Below are positions 1,652-53,393 of a stretch of DNA of 56,609 bases, in pieces (the first letter of the stretch is position 1; the number at the start of each line of letters is the position of its first letter). A model generated the notes under the pieces. The model was not told the DNA's origin, searched no databases, and was given only the letters and a program-made list of their open reading frames with translations. Origin of the DNA: an uncultured Candidatus Saccharibacteria bacterium. GTDB taxonomy: Bacteria; Patescibacteriota; Minisyncoccia; Phycocordibacterales; UBA2100. The stretch lies in contig CAYHIZ010000001.1 of NCBI GenBank assembly GCA_964356695.1, positions 1-56,609 on the forward strand, given 5' to 3'. A program made the translations under genes and the position numbers.

Positions 1652-3124
1652 ATGGCGAAGGAAGAAACAATCGTGCGTTTTGAAGACGCGTCTTTTGAAT
1701 ATAGTGCCGCCAAACCCATTCTTGAGAAGATAGATTTCAACATCCGACGCGGGTCCAAGATCACTATCATGGGCCAGAACGGTGCAGGCAAGAGCACGAT
1801 ATTCGGGCTCATCACCGGCACGCACAGCCTCGAAGAGGGCAAGATTCACATGCCGCACGGACTCACGATAGCGACATCACGCCAGGTAATCCCGCGTACG
1901 GAGATGGATCTAACGGTGCGCGAATTTTTCCAGAAATGCTTCGACAAGAAAATGTACGACATCGATCCGCGTATCGACGAAGCGCTTGAGGTGGTCAATC
2001 TAAAAGGTCATGTAAAAGTGCATGATCGCATCATCAAATCATTCTCCGGTGGTCAGCAGGCGCGGCTATTGCTCGCCTCCGCGCTCATCCAAAACCCTGA
2101 TCTGCTCTTGCTCGACGAACCAACCAACAATCTCGATCATGCGGGAATCAAACACCTAACCGAATATCTCACTGAATACGCCAAGACCGTCGTAGTGATT
2201 TCGCACGATGCGGATTTCTTGAATGCATTTTCCGACGGCGTGCTGTATCTGGATGTAAAAACGCGCAAGGTCGAGCAATACACGGGCAACTATTTCAACG
2301 TGGTCAAACAGATCACCGAGCGTATCGAACGCGAGAATCGCAAGAACGCGCTCCTCGCCAAAGATATTCAAGCCAACAAAGACAAAATCAACTACTTCGC
2401 GAACAAAGGCGGTAAGATGCGTCTCATCGCCAAGAAGATGCGCACGCAGATCGCGGAAATGGAAGAAGAAAAAGTCGATGTGCGCAAAGAAGACAAAACG
2501 ATCAAAACATTTTTAATCCCGGTGCAGGATATAAAAGGCGAGATATTACACATAAATTCATACAATACGATCCCCTCAACTGGGCTCGGAGCAGGCAAGG
2601 CTAAATTACATAAAGCCAACATCTCGCTCAAACGCGGTAAGCATCTATTATTGAAAGGTCCGAATGGAATCGGTAAGAGTACCCTGCTCGAATCCATCGC
2701 TAGGGGCACCGCGCAAGGGGCATCGATAGGGAAGGGGGTCAAAGTCGGATATTATCGTCAGGATTTTTCAACGCTCAATTTTGACGACACGGTATACAAA
2801 TCGCTCGAAGCGGCGATGCACAAACCCGACGAAGAAAAACTGCGCGCGATCTCGGCCGGATTCCTCATCACATCCGACATCATTCACACCAAAATTGGTC
2901 ATTTATCTGAAGGGCAGAAAGGTCTCGTCGCATTCGCGCGCCTCGTTTTGGAACGTCCGGGGCTCTTGATCCTCGATGAGCCGACCAACCACATCAACTT
3001 TCGCCATTTGCCAGTGATCGCAAAAGCACTCAGCGAATATGAAGGCGCGATGGTGCTCGTGAGCCACGCCCCCGAATTCGTCGCACAAATACGGATCGAT
3101 GATGTGTTGGATTTGGAGAAGTAG
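1652..3124 (+). CDS. ABC-F family ATPase (two tandem ABC domains, no TM domain)
   Basis: Two Walker A motifs (GQNGAGKST, GPNGIGKST), signature-like FSGGQQARLLLA and LSEGQKGLVAFA, and Walker B LLLLDEPTNNLD and LLILDEPTNHIN. A charged linker lies between the domains. Confidence 0.85.
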   Translation: MAKEETIVRFEDASFEYSAAKPILEKIDFNIRRGSKITIMGQNGAGKSTIFGLITGTHSLEEGKIHMPHGLTIATSRQVIPRTEMDLTVREFFQKCFDKKMYDIDPRIDEALEVVNLKGHVKVHDRIIKSFSGGQQARLLLASALIQNPDLLLLDEPTNNLDHAGIKHLTEYLTEYAKTVVVISHDADFLNAFSDGVLYLDVKTRKVEQYTGNYFNVVKQITERIERENRKNALLAKDIQANKDKINYFANKGGKMRLIAKKMRTQIAEMEEEKVDVRKEDKTIKTFLIPVQDIKGEILHINSYNTIPSTGLGAGKAKLHKANISLKRGKHLLLKGPNGIGKSTLLESIARGTAQGASIGKGVKVGYYRQDFSTLNFDDTVYKSLEAAMHKPDEEKLRAISAGFLITSDIIHTKIGHLSEGQKGLVAFARLVLERPGLLILDEPTNHINFRHLPVIAKALSEYEGAMVLVSHAPEFVAQIRIDDVLDLEK

Positions 3125-3187
3125 GGTGATTAGTTTTGGGAATCAGATCCTCTATTGTTTTAGTAAATAAACTGCTAAAATAATAAT

Positions 3188-4267
3188 ATGAAAAACTCAC
3201 AAAAAGGATTTGTCATGCCTTTGATCCTTGCACTCATTGCCATTCTGTTGGTCGGTGGTGGTGCATATGTGTATACACAAGATAAACAAGGCAATCAGAC
3301 GAATGTCGTAAGCCAAACTACTGATACGACATCAACTGAGCAGACTGCAGATTGGAAGACATATACGAATAGTGCTTTTGATTTTAGCATAAAACTGCCC
3401 ACCAATAATAATGTTTACACGTGCGAAGATTCTTCAACTCGTGCTCAATTGGCCAATGAAAAAAGTTACAGAGTATTTATACTGGAAAATCCATCAGATA
3501 TTGATTTGATGAAATCTTGTGATTACTCTGAACGTGCAAAATACAATAATCTGTATATAAACGCGTCTCGGTCAACTCCTGGCGCGTATTCTGACCTCGT
3601 CGCTAATTGGAAAAAAAATTACGGCGACGGGAAATATATCACCCTTGAAGAAACGACATTTGCTGGGCATGGAGCTACTGGACATGAAGCATTAATGAAA
3701 ACAAAGGTAGAAGGTCCAAACAACGATAACTTGTACAAAGAGGTTGTGATTAATGGTGGTATGTATTCTTACTATCTAAGTTTCGCTAAAAAGAGTGATT
3801 CTTTAGAAGAAACACTCGCCACATTTCAGGTTATGGAGACCAAGAGTACATTATCGGACTGGCAGACTTTAAAAAGTAACGATTTAGGGATTGAGATAAA
3901 ATTCCCAAATGATTATCGCTCAAACACAGTTAACTCCAAACTTGTCGTCGCGTCAGACCTCACTATTTTTCCAGTTCCACAGCCGATAGAATTTGGTCCT
4001 CGTCTGATTATTTCTAGAACATCGGATCATGTCACCGCGAACACAAATGTAGACACATGGGTGGACAATATTTTTCGCACTGACAATAGTAAATCTGTAA
4101 AAGGACGAGGATATACGACGACCAATGGTACGAAATGGGTCAAAGTAAAATACCTAGACGTGAGTGGCGTCGGACCGAATTTGACTTCGATGGGCAAGGT
4201 TTTGAAGTTATCGTCCAGTAATAATTTGAATCTCTCGACCCTTGGAATAACCCGTGCCGTTTTATAA
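3188..4267 (+). CDS. Hypothetical N-terminally anchored/secreted protein with internal two-module duplication
   Basis: N-terminal TM/signal (FVMPLILALIAILLVGGGAYVY). Two modules open alike: DWKTYTNSAFDFSIKLPTNN and DWQTLKSNDLGIEIKFPNDY. The gene is AT-rich relative to its neighbours by eye. Confidence 0.5.
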   Translation: MKNSQKGFVMPLILALIAILLVGGGAYVYTQDKQGNQTNVVSQTTDTTSTEQTADWKTYTNSAFDFSIKLPTNNNVYTCEDSSTRAQLANEKSYRVFILENPSDIDLMKSCDYSERAKYNNLYINASRSTPGAYSDLVANWKKNYGDGKYITLEETTFAGHGATGHEALMKTKVEGPNNDNLYKEVVINGGMYSYYLSFAKKSDSLEETLATFQVMETKSTLSDWQTLKSNDLGIEIKFPNDYRSNTVNSKLVVASDLTIFPVPQPIEFGPRLIISRTSDHVTANTNVDTWVDNIFRTDNSKSVKGRGYTTTNGTKWVKVKYLDVSGVGPNLTSMGKVLKLSSSNNLNLSTLGITRAVL

Positions 4268-4396
4268 TTTCTCCTAAGATGGTGGGGGTGTTGCGTGCGC
4301 TAGAAAGGGTTTTGGGCAAGCACATACAGATTTGCGCCCGCGTTGTAGATACTCAATCAATGGTGTGTCGAGAGTGAGGGGAGAAGCGCAACGCGA

Positions 4397-4753
4397 CTAC
4401 TCAGTGTCCTCAAAAGGCGGGTTGATGAGAAATCCGTCGGCCGCAAGGATCACGATGCGTCCTTTCAACTCCATTTCTCCATACTGCGCGAATAGCCGTG
4501 ACAACGCGCCGTTGATTATATCGGCGTTCGGCGGATGTATGCGGACGATAACGATTCCGGCGTATTTCTCCGGCGGGTATGCGAGCGCGTTGATGAAATC
4601 CTTATCGTGAGTAACGAGTATCCTATGCTCGACCTGCGCCATACGCACGACCAATGTGTCGGAAGCGCCGCGGGAAACGTATTTCACGCTCCCGAACGAA
4701 GCGAGGAAATCGCGCACTTCGCGCCGCACGTTTTCGTCAACGAGCAAGCGCAT
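4397..4753 (-). CDS. DUF5615-type PIN-like putative toxin
   Basis: From the internal ATG at 4753: MRLLVDENVRREVRDFL...ILVTHDKDFINAL...GIVIVRIHP, the pattern of DUF5615/Mut7-C-like PIN proteins. It overlaps the 3' end of the upstream DUF433 gene by 17 nt. The ORF track extends it to 4801. Confidence 0.55.
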   Translation of the reverse strand: MRLLVDENVRREVRDFLASFGSVKYVSRGASDTLVVRMAQVEHRILVTHDKDFINALAYPPEKYAGIVIVRIHPPNADIINGALSRLFAQYGEMELKGRIVILAADGFLINPPFEDTE

Positions 4754-4994
4754 GATCGAATCTGACGACCGAACCGCGCATCTCCGGAGCGCGGGAGGCA
4801 AAGCCGAATGCGGCGTTCACATGACGCTTCGTGAGCTTGGGATATGCGCGCAGGACATCCTCGACGCTCTCGCCGGCGGCGAGCATTTCAAGTACTAAGT
4901 ACACCATGACGCGCGTACCCTTGAACACTGGATTGCCGTGCGCCACACGCGGATCGGATGTGATGTATTTGGCGATGTCTTCCATGGAAAGCAT
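4737..4994 (-). CDS. DUF433-domain putative antitoxin
   Basis: ITSDPRVAHGNPVFKGTRVMVYLVLEMLAAGESVEDVLRAYPKLTKRHVNAAFGFA matches the characteristic DUF433 pattern (dP..GkP.i.GTR..V..). Confidence 0.65.
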   Translation of the reverse strand: MLSMEDIAKYITSDPRVAHGNPVFKGTRVMVYLVLEMLAAGESVEDVLRAYPKLTKRHVNAAFGFASRAPEMRGSVVRFDHALAR

Positions 4995-5072
4995 GATAAC
5001 ATGCCACGCCGTGTGGACAATTCTGTGGGCAATAGCTCTGTGACTATAGTTACAAAAGCGTACCCTACCACA

Positions 5073-6206
5073 CTAACGAATGACTTTTGCGACTGTTGTT
5101 GCTACTCTTTTGTCGAACATGTCGGGCACGATTTTGTCTGGCGTCGGAGTTTTCACCAGTCCCGCGATTGCGCGTGCCGTTTTTATTTTCATCGCGGTTG
5201 TAATTTTGCGTATATTGCGATCAAGCGCGCCGCGAAAAACGCCTGGAAACGCGAGTGAATTGTTGATCTGATTCGGAAAATCCGATCTTCCCGTACCGAC
5301 GATCAGTGCACCTCCTCGCTTTGCCTCATCGGGCATAATCTCCGGCATAGGATTCGCCATCGCGAACACGATTGCATTCTTTGCCATGAGCTTTATGTCT
5401 TCTGCTTTCACCAAATTCGGACCGGATACGCCGAGAAGAACATCTGCGCCCTTGAGTGCATCGCGAAGTCCACCTTTTATGCCGCGCTTGTTGAATTTTA
5501 CAAGCGACCGCTTGTGCGTTTCTGGTCGGCTGGAATCTATTATTCCTTTGCTGTCGAGTACGATTATATCTTTTGCTCCGGCAACGCAGAGTAAATCCGC
5601 GGATGCTTTTCCTGCGGCTCCAGCGCCAAGAATCACGATTCGTGCCAAATGTATTTTCTTCTTCACAACTTTGAGCGCGTTGATGAGCGCGGCAAGAACG
5701 ACTATCGCCGTGCCGTGCTGATCATCATGCATGACGGGAATATCTAACGCCTCGATAATCCTCCGCTCTATCTCGAAGCATTTCGGCGCGGCAATATCTT
5801 CGAGATTGATACCGCCAAAGGCCGGTGCGATGCGAACGATTGTGTCTACGATTTCGTCGGTATCCTGGGTATCAAGCACTATAGGAATCGCATCAACATC
5901 GGCGAACGTCTTAAAAATCGCGCACTTTCCTTCCATTACAGGAAGCGCGCCTAAAGGTCCTATATTTCCGAGACCGAGCACTGCCGATCCGTCGGAAATT
6001 ACAGCAACAGTGCGCTTTTTCATGGTGTACATGCGCGCAAGCTTCGGATTTTTTGCAATCACACTCGACACCTCTGCGACACCGGGCGTATACACAAGCG
6101 ACAGATCCGCTTTGTTTCGTATTGGTGTTGCGGGAATCACGCGGATTTTCCCGCCCAACTTTTTGTGGAGCAACAATGCTTGTCGTGAGATATTCATTCC
6201 CGCCAT
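5073..6206 (-). CDS. NAD(P)-dependent malic enzyme (short form)
   Basis: DLSLVYTPGVAEVS, GSAVLGLGNIGP..ALPVMEGK, GGINLEDI, HDDQHGTA and the Rossmann motif ILGAGAAG. Start chosen at the ATG at 6206 (MAGMNISRQ); the ORF track extends to 6245. Confidence 0.85.
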   Translation of the reverse strand: MAGMNISRQALLLHKKLGGKIRVIPATPIRNKADLSLVYTPGVAEVSSVIAKNPKLARMYTMKKRTVAVISDGSAVLGLGNIGPLGALPVMEGKCAIFKTFADVDAIPIVLDTQDTDEIVDTIVRIAPAFGGINLEDIAAPKCFEIERRIIEALDIPVMHDDQHGTAIVVLAALINALKVVKKKIHLARIVILGAGAAGKASADLLCVAGAKDIIVLDSKGIIDSSRPETHKRSLVKFNKRGIKGGLRDALKGADVLLGVSGPNLVKAEDIKLMAKNAIVFAMANPMPEIMPDEAKRGGALIVGTGRSDFPNQINNSLAFPGVFRGALDRNIRKITTAMKIKTARAIAGLVKTPTPDKIVPDMFDKRVATTVAKVIR

Positions 6207-13148: not shown

Positions 13149-13219
13149 GCGCCCATAGCTCAATGGTAGAGCGACCGTCTTATACACGGTCTACCTAGGT
13201 TCGATTCCTAGTGGGCGTA
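13149..13219 (+). tRNA. tRNA with anticodon TAT (UAU; predicted tRNA-Ile decoding AUA)
   Basis: 71-nt cloverleaf folded by hand. Acceptor GCGCCCA/TGGGCGT (G1-U72 wobble); D arm GCTC-AATGGTA-GAGC; anticodon arm ACCGT-CTTATAC-ACGGT; 4-nt variable loop; T arm CTAGG-TTCGATT-CCTAG; discriminator A. CCA is not encoded. Confidence 0.8.
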
Positions 13220-13220
13220 C

Positions 13221-13310
13221 ATGATCGAAATTCGAATGAATCCTACTCTTTCCATTTTGGAAAAAATCGCTGGAGCGCTTGGAATTTCAAGCAGTGAACT
13301 TTTGAAATAA
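13221..13310 (+). pseudogene. 3' remnant of an XRE-family HTH regulator gene
   Basis: A 29-codon ORF, MIEIRMNPTLSILEKIAGALGISSSELLK*. It corresponds only to the last helices of an XRE HTH domain (..NPSLxTLxKIAxALGxSxxELx). It begins 1 nt after the tRNA 3' end. Confidence 0.4.
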
Positions 13311-13314
13311 AGTT

Positions 13315-14004
13315 ATGAAATTTGAATTAAAAAAATACAACAGAGTCACTCCAAAAGATTATCGAAATGTCACTGATGAAGAGCTGATCAATGATTTACG
13401 CCAAGTTGCTAATAAATTACAGAAGGATTCTGTAACCCACAATGAATATGATCAACAAGGTAAATTTAATAGCCATATTTTTGGTAGAAGATTTGGTGGT
13501 TGGCTAAACGCACTTGAAAAAGCTGGTCTCCAAAAGACGAGGAATTATAATATAACTGACGAGGAGGCATTTCAAAATTTAGAAAATATTTGGATAAAGT
13601 TAGGACGGCAACCTATACGCGAAGAATTGTATGCACCACTTTCAAAGTACAGCGGTGCGTTCTATGAATACCATTTTGGCACATGGCAAAAGGCATTAGA
13701 AAAATTTGTCGCTTATATCAACAATGAGGAAAATATCTCATCCGAGGAATCAATAAAAAATTTGGAAATTGAGCCAAATACTCAACATAAAACTACAAGA
13801 GGTGTAAATGAGCGGTTACGATTTATTGTTATGAGGCGAGATAATTTCAAATGCAAAGATTGCGGTCGGTCACCCGCAACTGACCCGAGTATCATTCTTC
13901 ATGTTGACCACTTTAAGGCGTGGGCAAAAGGTGGCGAAACAATTTTAGAAAATTTACAAACACTTTGCTCGGTATGTAATCGCGGCAAAAGCGATTTAGA
14001 ATAA
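13315..14004 (+). CDS. HNH endonuclease with two N-terminal homing-endonuclease-associated repeats
   Basis: Two repeats (ELINDLRQVANKL..THNEYDQQGKFNSHIFGRRFGGWLNALEKAG and FQNLENIWIKLGRQP..YSGAFYEYHFGTWQKALEKF). C-terminal HNH motif CKDCGRS...HVDHFKAWAKGGETILENLQTLCSVCNRGK. Confidence 0.8.
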   Translation: MKFELKKYNRVTPKDYRNVTDEELINDLRQVANKLQKDSVTHNEYDQQGKFNSHIFGRRFGGWLNALEKAGLQKTRNYNITDEEAFQNLENIWIKLGRQPIREELYAPLSKYSGAFYEYHFGTWQKALEKFVAYINNEENISSEESIKNLEIEPNTQHKTTRGVNERLRFIVMRRDNFKCKDCGRSPATDPSIILHVDHFKAWAKGGETILENLQTLCSVCNRGKSDLE

Positions 14005-14008
14005 AATT

Positions 14009-14557
14009 ATGGCAATCAATATTACTTATTTTGTACACGGAACGACTACAGATAACGAAAAAGAAATTTCGTCCAGCTGGAAAGATGTTGAACTTTCGGA
14101 ACTCGGCGTGAAGCAATCTGTAGAACTCAAAGAGCAGACCAAAGACAAGAAATTTGATGTCGTGTTCTGTTCCGACTTACAACGCGCTCACAATTCGGCA
14201 AAACTCGCGTGGAAGGGCGTGTATGAGATTATTCCCGACGCACGGCTTCGTGAGTGTAATTACGGCACTTTGAACGGCGCGTCTTCGGATATTGTTGAAC
14301 CGATGCAAGAGGATGAAGCAATTACGAAGCCGTTTCCTGATGGCGAAAGTTATGAGGATGTGAAAACCCGCGTAGTGGACTTTCTCGACTTCCTAAAGAA
14401 AAACTACGACGGCAAGCATATCGCAATCGTCGCGCATAAAGCGTCGCAACTTTCGCTCGATGTATTACTCAAAGACAAGACGTGGAAACAAGCCCTTGCC
14501 GAGGATTGGCGAAAAACAAAGGCATGGCGGCCTGGTTGGGAATACGAAGTTAAATAA
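14009..14557 (+). CDS. Histidine phosphatase (phosphoglycerate-mutase-like) family protein
   Basis: The N-terminal ITYFVHGTTTDNE corresponds to the RHG catalytic motif region. FCSDLQRAHNSA and IVAHKASQ (second catalytic His region) follow. The start lies 4 nt after the HNH stop. Confidence 0.7.
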   Translation: MAINITYFVHGTTTDNEKEISSSWKDVELSELGVKQSVELKEQTKDKKFDVVFCSDLQRAHNSAKLAWKGVYEIIPDARLRECNYGTLNGASSDIVEPMQEDEAITKPFPDGESYEDVKTRVVDFLDFLKKNYDGKHIAIVAHKASQLSLDVLLKDKTWKQALAEDWRKTKAWRPGWEYEVK

Positions 14558-14559
14558 AA

Positions 14560-15270
14560 ATGACAGGAATATTTTTTGCACATCCACATACACTTCTAGA
14601 TCAAGTTGGTAAGGTTTTAGAAAAAGTTGGCGCTGAAAAATTCTTTACAAGCCCGGATGAGGAAGTGAGGAAAGCCCGAGAGGGATTCGCGGCATATTTT
14701 TTTACTCTTACCTTGAAGCAATATCTACGGAGAGATTGGTGGTTGGCGCAGTACGACCAAGTCACTAGAGCTTACCCAGATTTTGATTTTATATCTTTTG
14801 CAGAAAATCCTAACGATATGAAGATGGAGTCTGTAGAGCTAGCCGGCATTTACCCCCATTTCAAATCTTTTGACGAAGCCCTAAAAGTTGTTGAGAAGAA
14901 ACAGAAACAGTATGGCGACAAGCCAGTAAAGTTTAGTTTGTTAGTCTTTGTAAATCACGAAAAAAGCGAGGAGTGGATTAATCTGCTTAGAAAGAGCGTG
15001 AGTAGTGAGCACCCATTCTTGAGCATATGGACAATACACTTGAGGTTTAAGAAGGGCGGAAAGGAAGTCGGGAAGGCGGTTGCCCAAAGGATTGTGCCTT
15101 TACCGGGTCTGAGAGTTGAAACCGACACCGATGATTCTGAAATACATAAACGACAGCCTCTCCCAAGTTATATGGAGCAACATCAGGAAGGTGAACGCAT
15201 TTATATTACATTCAAGGCCGAGTTTATTGATAAAATGCGGAAAAAAGTTGGAGCGTTACAGGCTCTCTAA
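14560..15270 (+). CDS. Hypothetical protein (236 aa), third gene of the HNH/phosphatase operon
   Basis: The start lies 2 nt after the phosphatase stop. No family recognised. The segment YPDFDFISF...MESVELAGIY...LLVFVNHEKS is weakly reminiscent of a PD-(D/E)xK-like strand pattern; this is speculative. Confidence 0.5.
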   Translation: MTGIFFAHPHTLLDQVGKVLEKVGAEKFFTSPDEEVRKAREGFAAYFFTLTLKQYLRRDWWLAQYDQVTRAYPDFDFISFAENPNDMKMESVELAGIYPHFKSFDEALKVVEKKQKQYGDKPVKFSLLVFVNHEKSEEWINLLRKSVSSEHPFLSIWTIHLRFKKGGKEVGKAVAQRIVPLPGLRVETDTDDSEIHKRQPLPSYMEQHQEGERIYITFKAEFIDKMRKKVGALQAL

Positions 15271-15327
15271 GGGAACCCCGCCCGCGATCCTTTCTGCCCT
15301 TCGCGGGCGGGATTGCACGCAAATGGG
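15271..15327 (+). repeat. 57-bp direct repeat A (hairpin-containing), immediately after a stop codon
   Basis: GGGAACCCCGCCCGCGATCCTTTCTGCCCTTCGCGGGCGGGATTGCACGCAAATGGG. It contains the inverted repeat CCCGCCCGCGA/TCGCGGGCGGG. An ungapped hand alignment to 17222-17278 gives 46/57 identical positions. Confidence 0.75.
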
Positions 15328-15343
15328 AGATCGGTGTGAGGGC

Positions 15344-15368: not shown

Positions 15369-15468
15369 ACTCAATTATCCACAAACTATTGTGGAAATCA
15401 TTGCAATTTAATCTATTATCTGCTAGGATACGGTAGGTCGAGATAATAAGCGTAAAACCTATAAAAAT

Positions 15469-16677
15469 ATGATTCATTCAATTGCATGTAAAAACTTCTA
15501 TTCATTTGGGGAGGAGACGTCCCTTGATTTTGAGGTAAACGGCAATGCCCCAGAAAATAACGGCTATTTTGTAGCCAAGTCAGGCGTACGGCTCTCAAAG
15601 GTCGAAACGGTCGTAGGACCAAATGCGTCCGGTAAAACTAACTTGCTAAAAGTTTTGCCGTTTTTGAAGTGGCTGATCATTGATTCGTTCAACATGAAGC
15701 CCGAGAATCCGATTGTCGTTCAGCCGTTCGCATTTGGCGACGAAAAGAATGAGCCGACAGAGCTGTCAGTGGTTTTTGAGGTTGATGGAAAAGTGTATAC
15801 TTACGCATTTACCATCACTAAAGAGAAGGTTTTAAGCGAGGAATTAAAGCTCACCAGTTTTGCAAAGGAGAAGAAATCTACCAAGAAAATTTTCTCTCGA
15901 AGCTGGAATGTGAAAGAAAGTCGGTATGATTTTGAAGGAGATAATTTTGATCTGCCAAAAGGCTTTGAAAATCTCTTGCGTTCAAATGCAAGTGTTATTG
16001 GTACTGCCGCCCGACTTAATCACGCGGAAAGTCAGGCCATTGCGACATACTGGGGACAGATTGAAACAAATGTCATTGAGGCAGGGTGGATTGGTGATCA
16101 TTTGCTCCCCAATTCTATTGCCCAACTCGGAGGAGCCTTTGATTTCTTTAGTGAAAACAGTGCGCTTAAACAAGAGGCGGAGAAGTTGCTTAGCCGATTT
16201 GATTTGGGGCTAAGTGGGTTCGAAATAAAGAAAGAGAAAAAGGAAAATGGTTTTTCTCTCAATGTTCGAGCGTCACATCTGTTCAATGGGCAGACACAGT
16301 ATTTACCTGTTCAATATGAGTCGTCTGGAACAAAGCAATTGTTTGTGCTGTTGAAAAGCATTCTCGCCGCCCTTGAAAAAGGAAGTGTCGCTATTATCGA
16401 TGAGTTTGATGTAAACTTGCATCCTGAAATGGTGATGGCGTTGTTTGATTTGTTCATACAGCCGGAGACGAATCCAAAAAACGCACAGCTTCTTCTAAGC
16501 ACTCATAGCCATATGCTTTTGAGCAAGCTCGATAAGTACCAGATTGTATTGGTCGAGAAGAATGAAAATGGCATAAGCGAAGCGTGGCGCTTGGACGAAA
16601 TGCTCGATGTTCGCTCTGATGATAACTATTACTCAAAATATATCGCCGGAGCGTACGGGGCTGTTCCGAATATTTAA
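15469..16677 (+). CDS. AAA_21/ABC-like ATPase (AbiLi / RloA / PARIS AriA-like)
   Basis: Walker A GPNASGKTNLLKVL, signature-like YESSGTKQLFVLL, Walker B VAIIDEFDVNLHPEM and an H-loop region LLLSTHSHMLL. Confidence 0.8.
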   Translation: MIHSIACKNFYSFGEETSLDFEVNGNAPENNGYFVAKSGVRLSKVETVVGPNASGKTNLLKVLPFLKWLIIDSFNMKPENPIVVQPFAFGDEKNEPTELSVVFEVDGKVYTYAFTITKEKVLSEELKLTSFAKEKKSTKKIFSRSWNVKESRYDFEGDNFDLPKGFENLLRSNASVIGTAARLNHAESQAIATYWGQIETNVIEAGWIGDHLLPNSIAQLGGAFDFFSENSALKQEAEKLLSRFDLGLSGFEIKKEKKENGFSLNVRASHLFNGQTQYLPVQYESSGTKQLFVLLKSILAALEKGSVAIIDEFDVNLHPEMVMALFDLFIQPETNPKNAQLLLSTHSHMLLSKLDKYQIVLVEKNENGISEAWRLDEMLDVRSDDNYYSKYIAGAYGAVPNI

Positions 16678-16679
16678 CA

Positions 16680-17222
16680 TTGAAAATTATGTCGCGAACG
16701 AATCCATACAAGAAAAAACGTCGCAGTGCCAGCCGAACTTTACTGATGTATGGCGAGGGGCTTGGTGAGGAGATGTTCCTAAAACATTTGCGTGGACTGT
16801 ATTCCCGAGATAGCGGGGTCGCAGTAACAATACGTAATGGCAAAGGTGGCACGGCAACAAACATCATCACCAATGCCGTGAATGAGCCGGGCGCGTTTGA
16901 TCGGAGGGTTGTGATTTTGGATAATGATAAAAGCAAGCAGGAAATGAACCAAGCCCGAGCAGAAGCAAGACAGCGAGGAGTTGAACTGCTTGAAAATTCT
17001 CCCTGCCTGGAGGCTACACTGCTTGCGATTTTAAGACCCGGACAATCTTTTTCCGGTAGGACTTCGGCGTGGTGCAAAAGTGAGTTTGAGTCCAACTATC
17101 TGAATAAGAAAAAGCGCACTGAGCTCGGCGAATATACTAAGTTTTTTCCAAAGGCAACACTTGATGCACAGCGCGCCAATGTTACAGAATTGAATACTCT
17201 TATTTCTCTCATGCAGAGCTAG
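16680..17222 (+). CDS. RloB-like / Toprim-like protein (AbiLii / AriB-analogous partner)
   Basis: The start lies 2 nt after the ATPase stop (TTG at 16680, or ATG at 16689). TLLMYGEGLGEEMFLKHL resembles the RloB N-terminal EG..E Toprim motif, and VVILDNDKS is a DxD-like motif. Confidence 0.6.
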   Translation: MKIMSRTNPYKKKRRSASRTLLMYGEGLGEEMFLKHLRGLYSRDSGVAVTIRNGKGGTATNIITNAVNEPGAFDRRVVILDNDKSKQEMNQARAEARQRGVELLENSPCLEATLLAILRPGQSFSGRTSAWCKSEFESNYLNKKKRTELGEYTKFFPKATLDAQRANVTELNTLISLMQS

Positions 17223-17278
17223 GGAGTCACGCCCACGATTTCTTTTGCCCTTCGCGGGCGGGAGTGCACGCGAACGGG
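17222..17278 (+). repeat. 57-bp direct repeat B (partner of 15271-15327), immediately after a stop codon
   Basis: GGGAGTCACGCCCACGATTTCTTTTGCCCTTCGCGGGCGGGAGTGCACGCGAACGGG. Positions 26-50 are nearly identical to repeat A. The left hairpin arm is degenerate. Confidence 0.75.
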
Positions 17279-17357
17279 GGGTCTTCTGACTCTGAGAGTC
17301 ATCAGACTCGAATGAGGTGTTCGAAAAAGGTTCGAGCAAAGTGTATGATTACAGTAC

Positions 17358-17783
17358 ATGAGTTTGATGCTAAAAACCGAAAGTGCTGGGGGTATCGTCC
17401 GAAATGCGCGTGGCGAAATCGTGATTGTGCGAAACGGATGCGGTGATCCGTGGTGGGGATTTCCCAAGGGCCACATTGATGCTGGGGAAGATGCTTTAAC
17501 TGCGGCTAGGCGCGAAATCACCGAAGAAACAGGATTGCATGATCTCGTGCTTGTAAAAGAACTTGGTTCGTATGGGCGTTACAAAGGGAAACCGGGGGGA
17601 GGGGACGATACGAGTGAATATAAAACGATCACGATGTTTCTTTTTCTAACTCACGAAGAAAAGCTCGCGCCGACTGATCCGCACAATCCGGAAGCGCGTT
17701 GGATTTCTCCCGATATTTTAGTAGAAACACTTACGCATCCAAAAGACAGGGAATTTTTCATACAGGTACGCTGTTTGATATGA
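17358..17783 (+). CDS. NUDIX hydrolase
   Basis: Nudix box GFPKGHIDAGEDALTAARREITEETGL. Confidence 0.85.
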   Translation: MSLMLKTESAGGIVRNARGEIVIVRNGCGDPWWGFPKGHIDAGEDALTAARREITEETGLHDLVLVKELGSYGRYKGKPGGGDDTSEYKTITMFLFLTHEEKLAPTDPHNPEARWISPDILVETLTHPKDREFFIQVRCLI

Positions 17784-50710: not shown

Positions 50711-52063
50711 ATGACTAACCACGAACTCTGGCAAAATGCACTTGTTCAAATCGAGCTGGGCACCTCGGAGGCAAGTTTTCGCACGTGGTTTAAAAACACC
50801 GACGTAGCAGGGCGCAATGGGGAAACAGTCCAAGTCGCAGTACCTTCCAAAATAGTTAAAGAGTGGCTTTTGGAAAAACATCACAAACTAATAATGAGCG
50901 CACTCCGGAGTATGGATCCGGCGGTTCGCGCCATCGAATTTGTGGTGCACCGAGTAATATCTTCTCCAATCGAAATCAGAAAATCCGGGCGGACACAGTC
51001 AGTCGACAATGTTTCAATGGACCTCGACAATCTCTACATAGACAGGCGAGACAATTTAAACCCTCGTTACACGTTTGAAACATTCGTGGTCGGTCCCTTC
51101 AACCAGCTCGCCCATGCCGCCTCCAAGGCCGTAATTGATAAGCCGGGACTTGCTTATAATCCGCTTTTCATCTACGGCGCAACAGGACGCGGTAAAACAC
51201 ACCTCATACAGGCGATTGGCAATCACTTCAAGAAAACACATGCGAACAAAAGAGTATTGTATGTTACCTCAGAACGTTTCGCGGTTGATTACATCAACGC
51301 AGTCCGAGCCGGTCGCGCCAATGGCTTCAAGGATCAATACCGCGCGAACGATGTGCTAATCATGGACGACGTGCAATTCATCGCCAACACCGAAAAAACA
51401 CAGGAGGAGTTATTCCATTTATTCAACGCACTGCACGATAGCAATAAGCAAATAGTTTTTTCCTCCGATAAGCACCCACTATTGCTCGGGGGCTTCGAGG
51501 ACAGAATCAAGGGTCGTTTCTCCGCAGGAATGATTGCAGAAATTCCCGAGCCGGATATTGAATCCAGGGTGGCAATCATAAGAGCCAAACTGGAAAGCCA
51601 CGGCTTTTCGGTTCCCGACGACATCATCCAACACATTGCCGAAAGCGTTCATGGCAACATACGCGAAATCGAGGGAATACTCAATATGATTGTTTGTAAG
51701 TCCCAACTCAAAGGAAAAGGTGTTTCCCTGTCAGACGTACGAACACTCATAAAACACAACATCAAGCCGAATAAAGGCATATCTCCTGATGAGGTTGTGC
51801 GCCGTATAGCCGGATACTATGAAATCCCCGAGAAAAGCATCTACGAAAAAACCCGAAAGAGGGAAGTGGTAAAACCAAGGCAAATAATTATGTATATTCT
51901 TCGTGAAGAATTTAACGCCTCATATCCATTAATCGGAGAGAAGCTTGGTGGTCGCGATCACACAACAGTAATTCACTCTTGCGAGAAGATAAAGGAAGAG
52001 ATGAAATCCAGCCCTTCACTGGAGCAAGAGATCGACCACATACGCATGCTAATTCACGCATAA
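50711..52063 (+). CDS. dnaA: Chromosomal replication initiator protein DnaA
   Basis: LNPRYTFETFVVG, Walker A GATGRGKTHL, VLIMDDVQF, and C-terminal DNA-binding domain ..LGGRDHTTVIHSCEKI. Confidence 0.95.
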   Translation: MTNHELWQNALVQIELGTSEASFRTWFKNTDVAGRNGETVQVAVPSKIVKEWLLEKHHKLIMSALRSMDPAVRAIEFVVHRVISSPIEIRKSGRTQSVDNVSMDLDNLYIDRRDNLNPRYTFETFVVGPFNQLAHAASKAVIDKPGLAYNPLFIYGATGRGKTHLIQAIGNHFKKTHANKRVLYVTSERFAVDYINAVRAGRANGFKDQYRANDVLIMDDVQFIANTEKTQEELFHLFNALHDSNKQIVFSSDKHPLLLGGFEDRIKGRFSAGMIAEIPEPDIESRVAIIRAKLESHGFSVPDDIIQHIAESVHGNIREIEGILNMIVCKSQLKGKGVSLSDVRTLIKHNIKPNKGISPDEVVRRIAGYYEIPEKSIYEKTRKREVVKPRQIIMYILREEFNASYPLIGEKLGGRDHTTVIHSCEKIKEEMKSSPSLEQEIDHIRMLIHA

Positions 52064-52295
52064 TCTTTGTATAACACTGTGGATAATGTATGTGTAGTAT
52101 ATGAAAATAACCTTAACTGCTTTTTAGAAAAAAATAAAAAAACTTATCAACACCGATATACCCATAAGTATTACAACTTTTCCACATAATCACATCCTAA
52201 AAATATCGCGACATCACTCACTTCCAAACACTTCTCCACATCATGCACACCATTATTAATAATAGTAGTTTTAATATCTAATTCTTTCTTAATAT
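52064..52295. other. Candidate oriC (dnaA-dnaN intergenic region)
   Basis: Perfect DnaA box TGTGGATAA at 52078-52086 (reverse orientation). One-mismatch boxes TTTTCCACA (52178-52186) and TTCTCCACA (52232-52240). Very AT-rich tracts at about 52100-52145 and 52250-52295 are candidate DUEs. Confidence 0.6.
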
Positions 52296-53393
52296 ATGAA
52301 TATAAAATTATCAATGTCCCAAGAAAAGATTCTAAATCCAATTCTTATGGCGGAAAGAATTGTTGGGAAAAAAGAATCATTACCAGTTCTATCTTGTATC
52401 CTTATCGATGTTGGTGCGAGTGTATTTTTGAGGGCAACTAACCTAGAGGCTGCAATTGAAATCAAAATACATTGCAATATGGAGGGGGAGGGTAAAATCG
52501 CAGTGCCATCCGGTGTTTTGTCTCAAACGATAAGATCAATAGGGGTGGGGAAAGTGGTATTGAGCGTGGATGACGGTAATTTGGTAGTCGAGTCCAAGGG
52601 AAATAAAACTATTATCAAATCTGTACCGTATGATGAATTCCCGACACTGCCCACTACCAACGGCACCGGTGGAATTCGTGTGTCTAGGGGGCGTCTAATT
52701 AGCGGTATTCAATCGGTTTTGTATTCGGCGTCCCCGTCTATGATACGACCCGAGCTTGGAAGCGTATATATTGCGCTTGGGGGTAAAAAACTTACCTGTG
52801 TCGCCACGGATTCCTTCCGTCTCGCAGAAAAGATAATCGTGGGCGATAGTGGGGAATCAGAGACCCTAATACCATTAAAGCACGCCCTAGAGCTTGTGCA
52901 TGTACTTGAAAAAATCAACCACGACGAAATAACCATTGTTATTGAGGAATCACAACTTACTATTATGGCGGACGATATAAGGTTTATTTCTCGCGTGGTG
53001 GATGGAAATTTTCCTAATTATAAAGAAATAATACCCAAAACATTCTCAACGGAGGCTACGATTCTTAAGGGTGATTTTTCAGAAATGCTAAAAAAGGCCC
53101 GCATATTTTCCGGTAATGATCAACATGTGGGATTACATGTTTATCCTGAGCGTAAAATTTTTAGTGCAACAGCCCGCTCGCAAGATGTGGGAGAAATGTC
53201 CGATTCGATAGATGCGGCGCTTTCCGGGGAGGATCTTGATATAAACTTTCACATAGGGTATTTGGCGGACTGTTTGCCTGTAATTGAGTCGGACTCCATA
53301 CTGCTTAAGTTTGCTGGCGCGGGCAAGCCACTTGTCATCCGTGGCGTATCGGATTCCTCATTTACATATCTTGTGATGCCATTGAATCGATAG
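52296..53393 (+). CDS. dnaN: DNA polymerase III beta sliding clamp
   Basis: 365 aa with three-domain clamp length and pattern (..ILSCILIDV.., ATDSFRLAEK, ..YLVMPLNR C-terminus), located directly after dnaA. Confidence 0.9.
   Translation: MNIKLSMSQEKILNPILMAERIVGKKESLPVLSCILIDVGASVFLRATNLEAAIEIKIHCNMEGEGKIAVPSGVLSQTIRSIGVGKVVLSVDDGNLVVESKGNKTIIKSVPYDEFPTLPTTNGTGGIRVSRGRLISGIQSVLYSASPSMIRPELGSVYIALGGKKLTCVATDSFRLAEKIIVGDSGESETLIPLKHALELVHVLEKINHDEITIVIEESQLTIMADDIRFISRVVDGNFPNYKEIIPKTFSTEATILKGDFSEMLKKARIFSGNDQHVGLHVYPERKIFSATARSQDVGEMSDSIDAALSGEDLDINFHIGYLADCLPVIESDSILLKFAGAGKPLVIRGVSDSSFTYLVMPLNR

What the first reader, a model, noticed from the sequence alone, without database searches (positions are those of the whole stretch)
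13315..15270. Tightly coupled HNH nuclease / histidine phosphatase / unknown 236-aa protein operon: candidate undescribed defence-type module
Seen: three ORFs on one strand are separated by only 4 nt and 2 nt. They sit directly after a tRNA and an XRE remnant, and directly before an AbiL/PARIS-like ATPase-Toprim pair. Gene 1 is an HNH endonuclease with two homing-endonuclease-associated repeats. Gene 2 has PGAM-like histidine phosphatase motifs. Gene 3 matches nothing I recognise, though it has a weak PD-(D/E)xK-like strand pattern (PDFDFISF..ESVELAG). Inference: a nuclease, a phosphatase and an orphan protein co-transcribed inside a defence-island context is not a combination I can assign to any named system. 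The phosphatase could act on a nucleotide or phospho-signal, or on nucleic acid ends. The operon could equally be a selfish HNH plus unrelated cargo.
Basis: partly seen in the sequence, partly recalled or inferred. Interest (0 to 1): 0.7.

Follow-up and report, generated by a model that had tools for sequence, protein, structure and literature searches.

The report
Shuffled gene cassettes beside a tRNA
The three tightly packed genes (an HNH nuclease, an unusual histidine phosphatase and an unknown protein that may be a nuclease) are real, but they are not one machine: each is a separately travelling, strongly conserved cassette, and the three have been stitched together in a decayed mobile island next to a tRNA gene of a groundwater Patescibacteria genome.

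Summary
The ORFs lie at 13315-14004 (HNH with two HNH_repeats), 14009-14557 (His_Phos_1) and 14560-15270 (no family hit), with gaps of 4 and 2 nt. They follow tRNA-Ile and a 29-aa XRE remnant and precede an AbiLi/AbiLii pair.

In 57 non-identical loci carrying the 236-aa gene (g3), the trio occurs only in the window's own population.

About two-thirds of g3 loci place it last in a restriction-modification operon. The usual form is an EcoRI-like methylase plus a DUF262-HNH enzyme.

The phosphatase (g2) sits in six unrelated gene contexts. The HNH gene (g1) belongs to a separate XRE-HNH module that integrates at tRNA-Ser.

At DNA level the window is three abutting homology blocks. Their breakpoints fall at start and stop codons and share a stereotyped TAA-AATT-ATG junction.

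Both g2 and g3 are under strong purifying selection. g3 is a rare family of unknown fold; a PD-(D/E)xK-like nuclease is only tentative. g2 has V-H-G in place of the canonical R-H-G.

Related full-length elements are XRE-headed, bounded by roughly 135-nt inverted repeats and inserted beside tRNA genes. A conserved 3' non-coding element follows g3 and recurs after AbiLii.

Interest is moderate.

The parts
13149..13220 (+). tRNA-Ile (anticodon TAT). It forms the left boundary of the island.
   Evidence: ARAGORN and Rfam tRNA at 71 bits. In at least 11 related loci a same-strand tRNA of varying identity lies directly upstream of the operon that carries g3.
13221..13310 (+). Remnant of an XRE-family HTH gene: only the last 29 codons, starting 1 nt after the tRNA. 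It is the decayed head of the cargo operon.
   Evidence: Sequence read. It aligns to the C-terminal part of the 65-71-aa XRE proteins that head the operons in L086, L029, L094, L044 and L064. The same TAA-4 nt-ATG junction to g1 is seen in L086.
13315..14004 (+). g1: an HNH nuclease with two HNH_repeat DNA-binding modules. The CxxC...CxxC motifs and the D-H...N HNH motif are intact.
   Evidence: Pfam. About 3000 homologues were found, the best 120 at 49-90% identity, most at 64% or more. An 80%-identical relative sits in an XRE-g1-263aa module flanked by direct repeats at tRNA-Ser. DNA homology block 13303-14012 matches L090.
14009..14557 (+). g2: a 182-aa branch-1 histidine phosphatase of a highly conserved Patescibacteria subfamily. 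It has V-H-G in place of R-H-G.
   Evidence: Pfam E 6e-30. Top 120 homologues are 81-90% identical. V9-H10-G11, R59, E82 and H143 are invariant. Six unrelated gene contexts were seen. dN/dS is 0.06 in the one pair with measurable dS. DNA block 14002-14559 matches L029.
14560..15270 (+). g3: a 236-aa member of a rare, strongly conserved family of unknown fold (tentatively PD-(D/E)xK-like). Elsewhere it is usually the last gene of restriction-modification operons.
   Evidence: No family hit. AF2 pLDDT 89 with alpha-beta-beta-beta-alpha-beta order. D74 and a helix-2 Lys are invariant across the wide family, and E93 and N132 nearly so. 57 loci were analysed. dN/dS 0.04-0.14.
15271..15332 (+). Conserved 3' non-coding element, copy a. 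It contains a GC-rich hairpin (15274-15287 / 15301-15314) and starts right after the g3 stop codon.
   Evidence: 63-nt direct repeat D1 and inverted repeat I9. There are only two copies in the window. The same element follows g3, or the last cargo gene, in many other loci. No Rfam match.
15469..17222 (+). AbiLi (15469-16677) and AbiLii (16680-17222). This is a separate two-gene defence module inserted after the 3' element.
   Evidence: PADLOC AbiLi 6e-76 and AbiLii 2.5e-11. The pair is bracketed by the 63-nt direct repeat. A promoter-like site lies at 15392-15419.
17221..17283 (+). Conserved 3' element, copy b. It is 79% identical to copy a and its left hairpin arm is degraded. It forms the right boundary of the island, before the NUDIX gene at 17367-17783.
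   Evidence: It matches the L044 element at DNA level.

Best explanation
The region is the decayed remains of a small mobile cargo element that lies beside tRNA-Ile. It is not a dedicated three-component system.

Complete relatives of this element have a fixed frame. Next to a tRNA gene comes a terminal inverted repeat or an att-like direct repeat, then a short XRE regulator gene, then a run of cargo genes joined by a stereotyped TAA-(A/T)4-ATG junction. A conserved 3' non-coding element follows, and then the second repeat.

In the window the left repeat and the first two-thirds of the XRE gene are gone. Three cargo cassettes of different origin remain.

- g1 is the HNH nuclease that normally forms a pair with the XRE gene.
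- g2 is a Patescibacteria-wide histidine phosphatase with a V-H-G active-site variant. It turns up in many unrelated operons.
- g3 is a rare protein of unknown fold, tentatively a PD-(D/E)xK-like nuclease. Its usual home is the 3' end of Type II or IIG restriction-modification operons.

The AbiL pair was added later, at the 3' element.

Inferred, not shown:
- The three genes are co-transcribed, probably by read-through from the tRNA promoter now that the XRE promoter region is lost.
- They are translationally coupled, but each protein acts on its own.
- g1 and g3 act as DNA nucleases, with g3 as an auxiliary or stand-alone restriction-type nuclease.
- g2 acts as a phosphatase on an unknown small-molecule or phospho-end substrate.
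For: **No recurrence of the trio.** Among 57 non-identical g3 loci, g1+g2 lie upstream only in the window's own Hainich H41 population.

**g3 has other, recurrent partners.**
- 25 loci have a DUF262-HNH gene, or its remnant, directly upstream. It matches PADLOC REase_II PDLC03418 at 2e-86.
- All 14 loci with an intact copy and enough upstream DNA also carry an EcoRI-like methylase (MTase_II, 2e-103).
- 3 loci have the methylase directly upstream of g3, 5 have an 817-856-aa NPPY enzyme, 1 has a TaqI_C methylase and 3 have a PDC-S53 helicase.
- g3 stays intact where the upstream nuclease is reduced to its last codons (L013, L014).

**g2 contexts all differ**:
- Peptidase_S66 - g2 - APH-like
- ABC-F - g2 - HicAB
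- XRE - 220aa - g2 - DUF4440 - DUF2806
- XRE - RibD_C - g2 - 468aa
- g3 - g2 - HicAB

**g1 belongs to another module.** An 80%-identical g1 lies in XRE-4nt-g1-4nt-263aa, flanked by 33-60-nt direct repeats that begin at the 3' end of tRNA-Ser. That module sits in several different flanks.

**Three homology blocks.** blastn splits the window into 13303-14012 (L090), 14002-14559 (L029) and 14560-15321 (L044). The breaks fall at the start and stop codons. 11 of 20 junctions in these elements are TAA + 4 A/T-rich nt + ATG.

**The frame is seen intact elsewhere.**
- L044 reads: tRNA-Arg, 135-nt TIR, XRE, methylase, two ORFs, DUF262-HNH, g3, 3' element, TIR.
- Inverted repeats also flank the g2 elements L029/L030 and L094.

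**Supporting points.**
- AbiL is bracketed by a 63-nt direct repeat.
- Selection on g2 and g3 is old and strong: dS is saturated and dN/dS is 0.04-0.14. Each is therefore a functional gene in its own right.
- Tight gene spacing is common across this genome.
Against: - g2 and g3 are adjacent in one other, independent locus (L062/L063: DUF262-HNH, g3, 164 nt, g2-like at 72% identity). This is more than a genome-wide random expectation, although they are in the opposite order.
- Almost half of g3 loci, and the window, have an HNH nuclease within two genes upstream. An HNH-g3 functional link is therefore not excluded.
- Three of the six g2 contexts share the layout XRE - variable gene - g2 - variable gene. 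This could mean g2 is the core of a modular system.
- Only six independent g2 contexts and one g1 context (a single relative, found in several flanks) were sampled.
- No empty site, transcript data or biochemical data exist.
- No inverted repeat of the L044, L029 or L094 type is present in the window. Its descent from such an element is inferred from the XRE remnant, the junctions and the 3' element.
Confidence: 0.7

Rival explanations
1. HNH nuclease, phosphatase and the 236-aa protein form one dedicated, undescribed three-component defence system, with the phosphatase acting on a nucleotide signal or on nucleic-acid ends.
For: Gaps of 4 and 2 nt on one strand. The genes lie in a low-GC island next to AbiL. 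g2 and g3 are neighbours again in L063, which also has an HNH enzyme upstream.
Against: - The trio was not found in any other of the 57 g3 loci, the six g2 contexts or the g1 contexts.
- The three genes are three separate homology blocks.
- Each gene occurs far more often without the other two.
- Neighbours of g2 are not recognised defence proteins.
- Tight spacing is genome-wide.
Confidence: 0.06
2. g3 is a functional partner of HNH nucleases: a second-strand nuclease, a regulator or an immunity protein. On this view the window's g1...g3 is a variant of the common DUF262-HNH + g3 pair, with g2 inserted between them.
For: 25 of 57 g3 loci have DUF262-HNH directly upstream. The HNH domain of g1 is detectably similar to that of these enzymes (E 1e-5 to 1e-8). 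g3 is always downstream and tightly coupled.
Against: - g3 also follows enzymes with no HNH domain: methylase alone, an NPPY type IIG-like enzyme, the PDC-S53 helicase, a ProB/PUA gene and a membrane protein.
- It is kept intact after the HNH gene has been deleted (L013, L014).
- g3 is 80-94% identical across loci whose HNH partners are only 35-75% identical. This argues against co-evolution.
Confidence: 0.12
3. g2 is the conserved core of a polymorphic, XRE-headed modular system with the layout XRE - variable A - g2 - variable B. The window would be one allele, with A = HNH and B = g3.
For: The same layout occurs in L029 (220aa, g2, DUF4440+DUF2806), L094 (RibD_C, g2, 468aa) and the window. 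g2 is extremely conserved, at 85% mean column identity, with a family-specific V-H-G active-site variant.
Against: - Other g2 contexts lack XRE and the layout: Peptidase_S66-g2-APH-like, ABC-F-g2-HicAB and g3-g2-HicAB.
- The partners have no common theme and give no PADLOC hits.
- Only six contexts were sampled.
Confidence: 0.1
4. g2 and g3 are housekeeping neighbours of the host lineage and only the HNH gene is foreign.
For: Very strong purifying selection on both genes.
Against: - There is no conserved synteny on either side of g2 or g3 in any locus.
- g3 is rare: 65 representative clusters among 1.84 billion proteins.
- The island has low GC.
- Both genes are found inside repeat-bounded elements.
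Confidence: 0.02

Closest known systems
tRNA-adjacent genomic or defence islands, and mosaic phage 'moron'-type cargo
   Same: The region lies directly 3' of a tRNA gene. It has lower GC than its flanks, carries defence and accessory cargo (AbiL, nucleases), shows att-like direct repeats in relatives, and shows modular exchange with breakpoints at gene boundaries.
   Different: The window has no integrase, and the complete relatives have none inside the repeats. Several relatives are bounded by 125-141-nt inverted rather than direct repeats. They are headed by an XRE gene, and their cargo is joined by a stereotyped TAA-AATT-ATG junction.
Type II restriction-modification operons with a controller (C) protein and a third accessory gene, for example dcm-vsr
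   Same: This is the usual home of g3: XRE(C-like) - EcoRI-like methylase - DUF262-HNH enzyme - g3. g3 is tightly coupled at the 3' end and more conserved than the R and M genes, as Vsr is relative to its partners.
   Different: The window has no methylase (tblastn). The methylases are of the EcoRI (amino-methylase) type, for which no deamination-repair rationale is known. g3 shows no detectable similarity to Vsr.
PD-(D/E)xK restriction-endonuclease-like superfamily
   Same: g3 models have the alpha-beta-beta-beta-alpha-beta order. P-D lies at the start of strand 2 and E lies in strand 3. A Lys and an acidic residue on the helices are conserved. Weak Foldseek and Pfam hits include EcoO109I, PaqCI, HinP1I, SwaI, MspJI, UL24, DUF2726, Mrr-like, DUF1780 and MutH.
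   Different: No hit is significant: best E 0.02 and TM 0.2-0.3. The model of a distant relative matches the acetyl-CoA carboxylase central domain better (E 3e-3). The canonical (D/E)-x-K lysine is replaced by Thr, Val or Ala.
Free-standing HNH homing-type endonucleases with HNH_repeat (PF18780), and McrA-like enzymes
   Same: g1 has two HNH_repeats plus an HNH domain with Zn-binding cysteines. It belongs to a large, widely dispersed family.
   Different: In relatives g1 is paired with an upstream XRE gene and lies in a repeat-flanked module at a tRNA gene, not inside a phage gene or an intron.
Histidine phosphatase superfamily branch 1 (PhoE, CobC, dPGM, PspA)
   Same: g2 matches PF00300 well above its cut-off. 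The nucleophilic His10, Arg59, Glu82 and His143 are conserved.
   Different: The Arg of the R-H-G signature is invariantly Val. No NCBIfam equivalog reaches its cut-off. The protein is only 182 aa long and behaves as a mobile cassette.
Integron gene cassettes
   Same: Promoterless single-gene units from a shared pool are strung head-to-tail, and a structured element lies at the array end and again after an inserted module.
   Different: There is no IntI, no attI and no attC consensus (R''/R' boxes). Cassettes are separated by only 1-4 nt, so there is no recombination site per cassette.

Membership tests
HNH endonuclease (PF01844) with HNH_repeat (PF18780): g1 | Profile match above the curated cut-off for both domains | tested here: met
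   HNH 42.1 bits against a cut-off of 21.4. HNH_repeat 96 bits against 26, in two stretches.
HNH endonuclease (PF01844) with HNH_repeat (PF18780): g1 | Catalytic D-H...N motif and Zn-binding CxxC pairs present | tested here: met
   Read from the translation: FKCKDCG ... HVDHFKAW ... ENLQTLCSVCNRGK.
Histidine phosphatase superfamily, branch 1: g2 | Profile match above the cut-off | tested here: met
   PF00300, 104.7 bits against a cut-off of 21.7.
Histidine phosphatase superfamily, branch 1: g2 | R-H-G signature (Arg next to the nucleophilic His) | tested here: not met
   V9-H10-G11 is invariant in 11 family members. It aligns to R-H-G of PDB 1fzt and 9mmh. His10, R59, E82 and H143 are conserved.
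Named phosphatases (CobC, PspA, GpmB and others): g2 | NCBIfam equivalog score above the curated cut-off | tested here: not met
   The best is ribazole_cobC at 78 bits against a cut-off of 162.9.
PD-(D/E)xK nuclease superfamily: g3 | Core alpha-beta-beta-beta-alpha-beta fold recognisably similar to a solved member | tested here: inconclusive
   The secondary-structure order fits in two models (pLDDT 89 and 91). Foldseek finds no match with E below 0.001. Restriction enzymes are enriched among the weak hits of model 1 but not of model 2.
PD-(D/E)xK nuclease superfamily: g3 | Motif D ... (D/E)-x-K on strands 2 and 3 | tested here: not met
   P73-D74 is present and invariant and E93 is nearly invariant. 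Position +2 is Thr, Ala or Val, never Lys. A Lys on helix 2 is invariant instead.
Conserved multi-gene defence system (the trio g1-g2-g3) | The component families co-occur, in conserved order, in independent genomes | tested here: not met
   0 of 56 other g3 loci carry g1+g2. One locus (L062/L063) has g3 followed by g2. There are six different g2 contexts.
Known defence systems in PADLOC: g2, g3 | Match to any PADLOC model | tested here: not met
   No hits for g2 or g3 at E up to 0.1.
Type II restriction-modification (the usual context of g3) | A cognate methyltransferase encoded nearby | tested here: not met
   tblastn of EcoRI-like methylases and of the type IIG-like enzyme against the whole 56.6-kb window: best E 0.09. 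The feature is met in L001, L004, L016, L018, L025, L035, L044 and others.
AbiL (downstream pair) | Adjacent AbiLi ATPase and AbiLii partner | tested here: met
   PADLOC AbiLi 6.2e-76 and AbiLii 2.5e-11, 2 nt apart.
Integron | IntI integrase and attC sites after each cassette | tested here: not met
   Cassettes are 2-4 nt apart. The 3' element has no attC boxes. No integrase lies in the island.
Rfam RNA families (3' element) | Covariance-model match | tested here: not met
   No match at E up to 1 in the window island or in seven related loci.

The most novel reading that the evidence does not exclude
The trio is the cargo of a so far undescribed class of small elements in Patescibacteria. These elements carry no transposase or integrase of their own. 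They are headed by an XRE gene, bounded by long inverted repeats (or att-like direct repeats), end in a conserved 3' non-coding element, and insert beside tRNA genes. They shuffle a shared pool of strongly conserved single-gene cassettes through a stereotyped TAA-AATT-ATG junction. The pool includes the V-H-G phosphatase and g3, which would itself be a new family of accessory nuclease of restriction-modification systems. In effect this would be an integron-like cassette economy without integron machinery.
Probability: 0.3. Interest if true: 0.7.

Novelty: new variant of a known kind. Interest (0 to 1): 0.4.

Why it matters
For the finding as written, the result is deflationary. Tight spacing in a compact Patescibacteria genome does not define a system, and this trio should not be listed as a candidate defence system.

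Three things remain worth recording.

1. g3 is a rare family: 65 clusters at 50% identity among 1.84 billion proteins. It has no annotation and a confidently predicted fold without a solved neighbour. It is under very strong purifying selection. In about two-thirds of loci it is the last gene of Type II or IIG restriction-modification operons. It is therefore a concrete candidate for a new accessory function of such systems.

2. The 182-aa V-H-G histidine phosphatase is one of the most conserved mobile genes seen here. It lacks a residue considered essential in its superfamily.

3. The XRE-headed, repeat-bounded, tRNA-adjacent elements offer a testable model of how ultra-small symbiotic bacteria exchange accessory genes.

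Tried and rejected
- **Sequence searches for g3.** Pfam, NCBIfam, PADLOC, PHROGs and PDB (single sequence and two profiles) gave nothing.
- **Foldseek.** Two AF2 models against PDB and one against BFVD gave no significant neighbour.
- **Pfam scan of 31 diverse family members at E up to 10.** Only scattered weak hits: DUF1780 0.021, restriction-endonuclease SH3 0.035, MutH 0.13.
- **g3 as the restriction enzyme of the adjacent methylase: rejected.** A full-length PADLOC REase_II (DUF262-HNH) is already present in those operons. In addition, the window and many other loci have no methylase.
- **Vsr-like repair role: considered but not supported.** The methylases are of the EcoRI amino type and there is no similarity to Vsr.
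- **Recent horizontal spread as the reason for high identity: rejected.** Synonymous sites are saturated.
- **Phage origin.** Neither g2 nor g3 is found in IMG/VR contigs.
- **Integron: rejected.** No attC and no IntI.
- **3' element as a known RNA.** No Rfam match. Single-sequence folding z-scores are weak because the sequence is GC-rich, so I did not build a covariance model.
- **Search for an empty site or strain variant of the island via the NUDIX neighbour.** One look-up was wasted on a wrong start codon. The correct one returned only the same island from the same aquifer well.
- **Inverted repeats of the L044, L029 and L094 type.** Searched for in the window and not found.
- **Literature.** Four searches found no description of these families or elements. 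One paper gives general background on genomic islands and R-M systems in groundwater Patescibacteria (PMC12455944).
Full report
**1. The observation**

All are on the + strand, with gaps of 4 and 2 nt.

- g1 carries two HNH_repeat stretches (E 1.6e-27) and an HNH domain (E 1e-10).
- g2 is a branch-1 histidine phosphatase (E 6e-30).
- g3 matches nothing in Pfam, NCBIfam, PADLOC, PHROGs or PDB sequences.

A tRNA-Ile(TAT) lies at 13149-13220. One base later a 29-codon ORF begins (13221-13310). It is the C-terminal end of an XRE-type HTH protein, and it stops 4 nt before the g1 ATG.

Downstream lie AbiLi (PADLOC 6e-76) and AbiLii (2.5e-11). GC content is 0.40-0.45 over 13-17 kb, against about 0.50 around it.

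The window comes from a Hainich (well H41) groundwater metagenome. Identical copies of the island occur on three other contigs of the same site. Homologues are annotated as Parcubacteria, Paceibacterota and Patescibacteria.

**2. Is tight spacing meaningful?**

Not by itself. With a simple longest-ORF gene call, 11 of 36 same-strand neighbour pairs in the window are 5 nt or less apart, and the median gap is 13.5 nt.

**3. Where g3 lives elsewhere**

g3 has 141 cluster representatives with E ≤ 0.001 in the 5.8-billion-cluster collection; the best 120 are 62-89% identical to it. It has only 65 representatives at 50% identity among 1.84 billion proteins, so the family is rare.

I collected 57 non-identical loci and classified the gene directly upstream.

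| Gene directly upstream of g3 | Loci | Notes |
|---|---|---|
| DUF262(GmrSD_N)-HNH protein or its remnant | 25 | Matches PADLOC Type II REase model PDLC03418 over its full length (2e-86) |
| EcoRI-like methylase | 3 | Methylase abuts g3 directly |
| 817-856-aa protein | 5 | Has an NPPY methylase motif and an N-terminal D...E-x-K motif; I read it as type IIG-like |
| TaqI_C-type methylase | 1 | |
| PADLOC candidate helicase PDC-S53 | 3 | Directly upstream of g3 in L061; in L021 a 235-aa ORF lies between them, and in L022 only that 235-aa ORF is seen |
| g1 + g2 | 1 | The window's own population only |
| Other | rest | Unknown proteins, a membrane protein, or a ProB/PUA gene |

All 14 loci with an intact DUF262-HNH gene and enough upstream DNA also carry an EcoRI-like methylase (PADLOC MTase_II, 2e-103).

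So about two-thirds of informative loci place g3 as the last gene of a restriction-modification operon.

g3 is 80-94% identical between loci whose DUF262-HNH partners are only 35-75% identical and whose methylases are 40-59% identical. It also remains intact where the upstream nuclease has been reduced to its last codons (L013, L014).

Its high identity is not due to recent spread. Synonymous sites are saturated in most comparisons, and dN/dS is 0.04-0.14 where it can be measured.

**4. What g3 is**

An AlphaFold model built with 30 homologues is confident: pLDDT 89, pTM 0.86. Its order of elements is helix 34-56, strands 61-64, 75-79 and 88-97, helix 104-118, strand 126-131, helix 136-146, followed by a beta-rich C-terminal part. 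A model of a distant relative (P0169, 21% identical) shows the same order (pLDDT 91).

This is the alpha-beta-beta-beta-alpha-beta order of PD-(D/E)xK nucleases.

Across a 31-member alignment with 32% mean identity:
- The Asp of a P-D motif at the start of strand 2 (D74 in the window protein) is invariant.
- A Lys on helix 2 is invariant.
- A Glu in strand 3 (E93, in 'V-E-L-T/V') and an Asn after strand 4 ('LLIFxN') are nearly invariant.
- A helix-1 Glu (E41) is usually present.

The canonical Lys two residues after E93 is never present.

Foldseek gives no significant neighbour:
- For the second model, the best hits are the central domain of acetyl-CoA carboxylase (E 3e-3, TM about 0.3), and restriction enzymes appear only around rank 45-50.

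Weak single-member Pfam hits include DUF1780 'putative endonuclease', a restriction-endonuclease SH3 domain and MutH.

I therefore treat 'metal-dependent nuclease of a divergent PD-(D/E)xK type' as the best guess, at roughly even odds. It is not a result.

**5. Where g2 lives elsewhere**

g2 belongs to a large Patescibacteria subfamily. The 120 best hits are all 81-90% identical and nearly all exactly 182 aa long. They are annotated from Nomurabacteria, Magasanikbacteria, Wildermuthbacteria, Minisyncoccota and others.

Its catalytic His10, Arg59, Glu82 and His143 are invariant. The Arg of the R-H-G signature is invariantly Val. dS is saturated in three of the four pairs; dN/dS is 0.06 in the pair where it can be measured.

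The six independent contexts I could read are all different:

| Context |
|---|
| Peptidase_S66 - g2 - APH-like - 360aa |
| ABC-F - g2 - HicB/HicA |
| XRE - 220aa - g2 - DUF4440 - DUF2806 |
| XRE - RibD_C - g2 - 468aa |
| DUF262-HNH - g3 - (164 nt) - g2 - HicB/HicA |
| The window |

These neighbours have essentially no PADLOC matches; the only hit is a marginal one to PbeC (E 3.6e-4, 49 residues) for the 468-aa protein.

The one extra g3-g2 adjacency (L062/L063) is in the opposite order and has a long spacer. I attribute it to both genes being drawn from the same cargo pool, but I cannot exclude more.

**6. Where g1 lives elsewhere**

g1 has about 3000 homologues; most of the best 120 are 64-90% identical (a few longer ones 49-62%). 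They occur in Patescibacteria and also in Omnitrophica, Nitrospinae and CPR2.

An 80%-identical relative (P0315) lies on at least 24 contigs in the arrangement XRE(71 aa) - 4 nt - g1 - 4 nt - 263-aa protein. This module follows tRNA-Ser(GGA). It is flanked by direct repeats of 33-60 nt that start at the 3' end of the tRNA (L090 119-151 and 2156-2188, 97% identical). A Xer-like tyrosine recombinase gene lies next to it. The flanking genes differ between contigs.

The XRE remnant in the window is therefore the head of an XRE-g1 pair.

**7. The window is three homology blocks**

blastn of representative loci against the window gives three blocks:

| Window coordinates | Best match | Identity |
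|---|---|---|
| 13303-14012 | g1 of L090 | 78% |
| 14002-14559 | g2 of L029 | 77% |
| 14560-15321 | g3 plus the following non-coding element of L044 | 83% |

The blocks abut at the start and stop codons.

The junctions are stereotyped. 11 of 20 junctions in these elements are TAA, four A/T-rich bases (AATT, ATTT, AAAT...), then ATG, usually preceded by an AAA or GAA codon. This could serve termination-reinitiation, act as microhomology for cassette exchange, or both. That is inference.

**8. The vehicle**

L044 shows a complete relative:

| Feature | Coordinates in L044 |
|---|---|
| tRNA-Arg | 885-957 |
| Left inverted repeat | 986-1120 |
| XRE | 1195-1389 |
| EcoRI-like methylase | 1394-2497 |
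| Two ORFs | between methylase and nuclease |
| DUF262-HNH | 3812-4981 |
| g3 | 5001-5699 |
| Conserved 3' element | follows g3 |
| Right inverted repeat (135 nt, 95% complementary) | 5966-6100 |

Inverted repeats also flank other elements:
- L064, a g3 element
- L029 and L030, g2 elements (125 nt, 99% complementary in L030)
- L094, a g2 element (141 nt, 100%). Its left arm ends at the contig start and equals the assembler's k-mer length, so its true length is unknown.

The L029-L032 element has at least three different right flanks.

A same-strand tRNA of varying identity (Ile, Gln, Ala/Ser, Ser, Arg, Glu) lies directly upstream of the g3 operon in at least 11 loci. None of these elements encodes a recognisable transposase or integrase between its repeats.

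The window has no such inverted repeat. It is a decayed, composite derivative.

**9. The 3' element and AbiL**

Directly after the g3 stop codon lies a 63-nt sequence with a GC-rich hairpin (15274-15287 / 15301-15314). It recurs, 79% identical, directly after the AbiLii stop codon (17221-17283). These are its only two copies in 56.6 kb.

The same element follows g3 in many loci whatever lies upstream. It also closes the g2 operon of L029-L032, which has no g3. Its parts, in order, are:
- TAGGGAG(C/T)C
- an optional hairpin found in at least four sequence versions
- the palindrome TGTGCGCGCAC(A)
- GGGnGGGtGGGG
- a second hairpin

It has no Rfam match. In several loci it continues into a conserved non-coding stretch of 300-400 nt that ends in the right inverted repeat.

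The bracketing of AbiLi/AbiLii by two copies indicates that the AbiL pair was inserted at this element as a separate event. AbiL also has its own promoter-like site at 15392-15419.

**10. How the region most likely works**

Shown:
- Three intact, selected genes of separate origin lie in one co-directional array.
- The regulator gene that normally heads the array is truncated at the tRNA.

Inferred:
- Transcription now enters from the tRNA promoter. No sigma-70-like site was found upstream of g1 on the + strand, although promoters in this phylum may differ.
- The 2-4-nt junctions give translational coupling.
- g1 cuts DNA as an HNH nuclease targeted by its two repeat modules.
- g3 acts as an auxiliary or stand-alone restriction-type nuclease. 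I estimate about 0.4 for this specific role. The alternatives are a non-catalytic DNA-binding or regulatory role, and a repair or self-protection role beside R-M systems.
- g2 dephosphorylates an unknown substrate.

Nothing indicates that the three proteins depend on one another.

**11. Comparison with what is known, and novelty**

The region is a tRNA-adjacent accessory island, which is a known kind of object, with a mosaic cargo operon.

What is not in the libraries or the papers I could search:
- the g3 family
- the V-H-G phosphatase subfamily as a mobile cassette
- the 3' element
- the XRE-headed, repeat-bounded vehicle

I rate the finding as a new variant of a known kind, with moderate interest (0.4). 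The proposed three-gene system is not there, but g3 and the vehicle deserve follow-up.

Noticed in passing
window 15270-15332 and 17221-17283: A 63-nt direct repeat (79% identical) brackets the AbiLi/AbiLii pair. Copy a holds an 11-14-bp GC-rich hairpin and copy b has a degraded left arm. These are the only two copies in the window. The pattern looks like the footprint of a separate insertion of the AbiL module.
   Followed up: partly
L044 5700-5810, L029 4296-4400, L035, L036, L040, L046, L048, L059, L064, L025, L057 5185-5300, L060 4155-4231: A conserved non-coding element lies at the 3' end of these cargo operons: TAGGGAGYC, a variable hairpin, TGTGCGCGCACA, GGGnGGGtGGGG, then a second hairpin. 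It has no Rfam match. In some loci it continues into 300-400 nt of conserved non-coding DNA. Whether it acts as RNA, as an operator or as a recombination site is unknown.
   Followed up: partly
L044 986-1120 / 5966-6100; L030 1-125 / 3459-3583; L029 1049-1114 / 4534-4599; L094 1-141 / 3081-3221; L064 1-30 / 3762-3791: Long, near-perfect inverted repeats bound XRE-headed cargo operons that carry no transposase or integrase. In L044 the left arm starts 28 nt after a tRNA-Arg. This may be an undescribed kind of non-autonomous or invertible element in Patescibacteria.
   Followed up: partly
window 13308-13317, 14002-14011, 14555-14562, and junctions in L026, L029, L044, L064, L086: There is a stereotyped gene junction: (A/G)AA TAA + 4 A/T-rich nt + ATG. 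It is shared by cassettes of different origin, and the DNA homology blocks break exactly there.
   Followed up: partly
window 14033-14041 (g2 residues 9-11): The histidine phosphatase subfamily has an invariant V-H-G where the superfamily signature is R-H-G. The other catalytic residues are kept.
   Followed up: partly
window 13149-13220: The tRNA-Ile has anticodon TAT (UAU). To my knowledge this is uncommon in bacteria, which usually read AUA with a lysidine-modified CAU tRNA. This statement is from memory and was not checked.
   Followed up: no
L024 48-120 (- strand); L072 2662-2751: ARAGORN calls a tRNA with anticodon CTA (labelled Pyl, an amber-suppressor type) and a tRNA-Ser with anticodon ACT next to g3 loci. 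These are unusual anticodons.
   Followed up: no
L028 57-1086; L063 3198-4254: g2 is followed by a HicB/HicA toxin-antitoxin pair in two independent loci.
   Followed up: no
L021 3253-3960; L022 5276-5995: A 235-239-aa protein with no family hit lies directly upstream of g3; in L021 it sits between the PDC-S53-type helicase and g3. Its 'FVGMNPS' motif reminded me of uracil-DNA-glycosylase-like proteins. This was not tested.
   Followed up: no
window 3001-4000 and 52001-53000: Two further 1-kb stretches have GC near 0.40, as low as the island studied here. They may be other acquired segments.
   Followed up: no
L013 5678-6000; window 13220-13221: In two independent loci a tRNA gene abuts a truncated gene of the element: the XRE remnant in the window and the last codons of the DUF262-HNH gene in L013. 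This suggests recurrent deletion or replacement events anchored at tRNA 3' ends.
   Followed up: no
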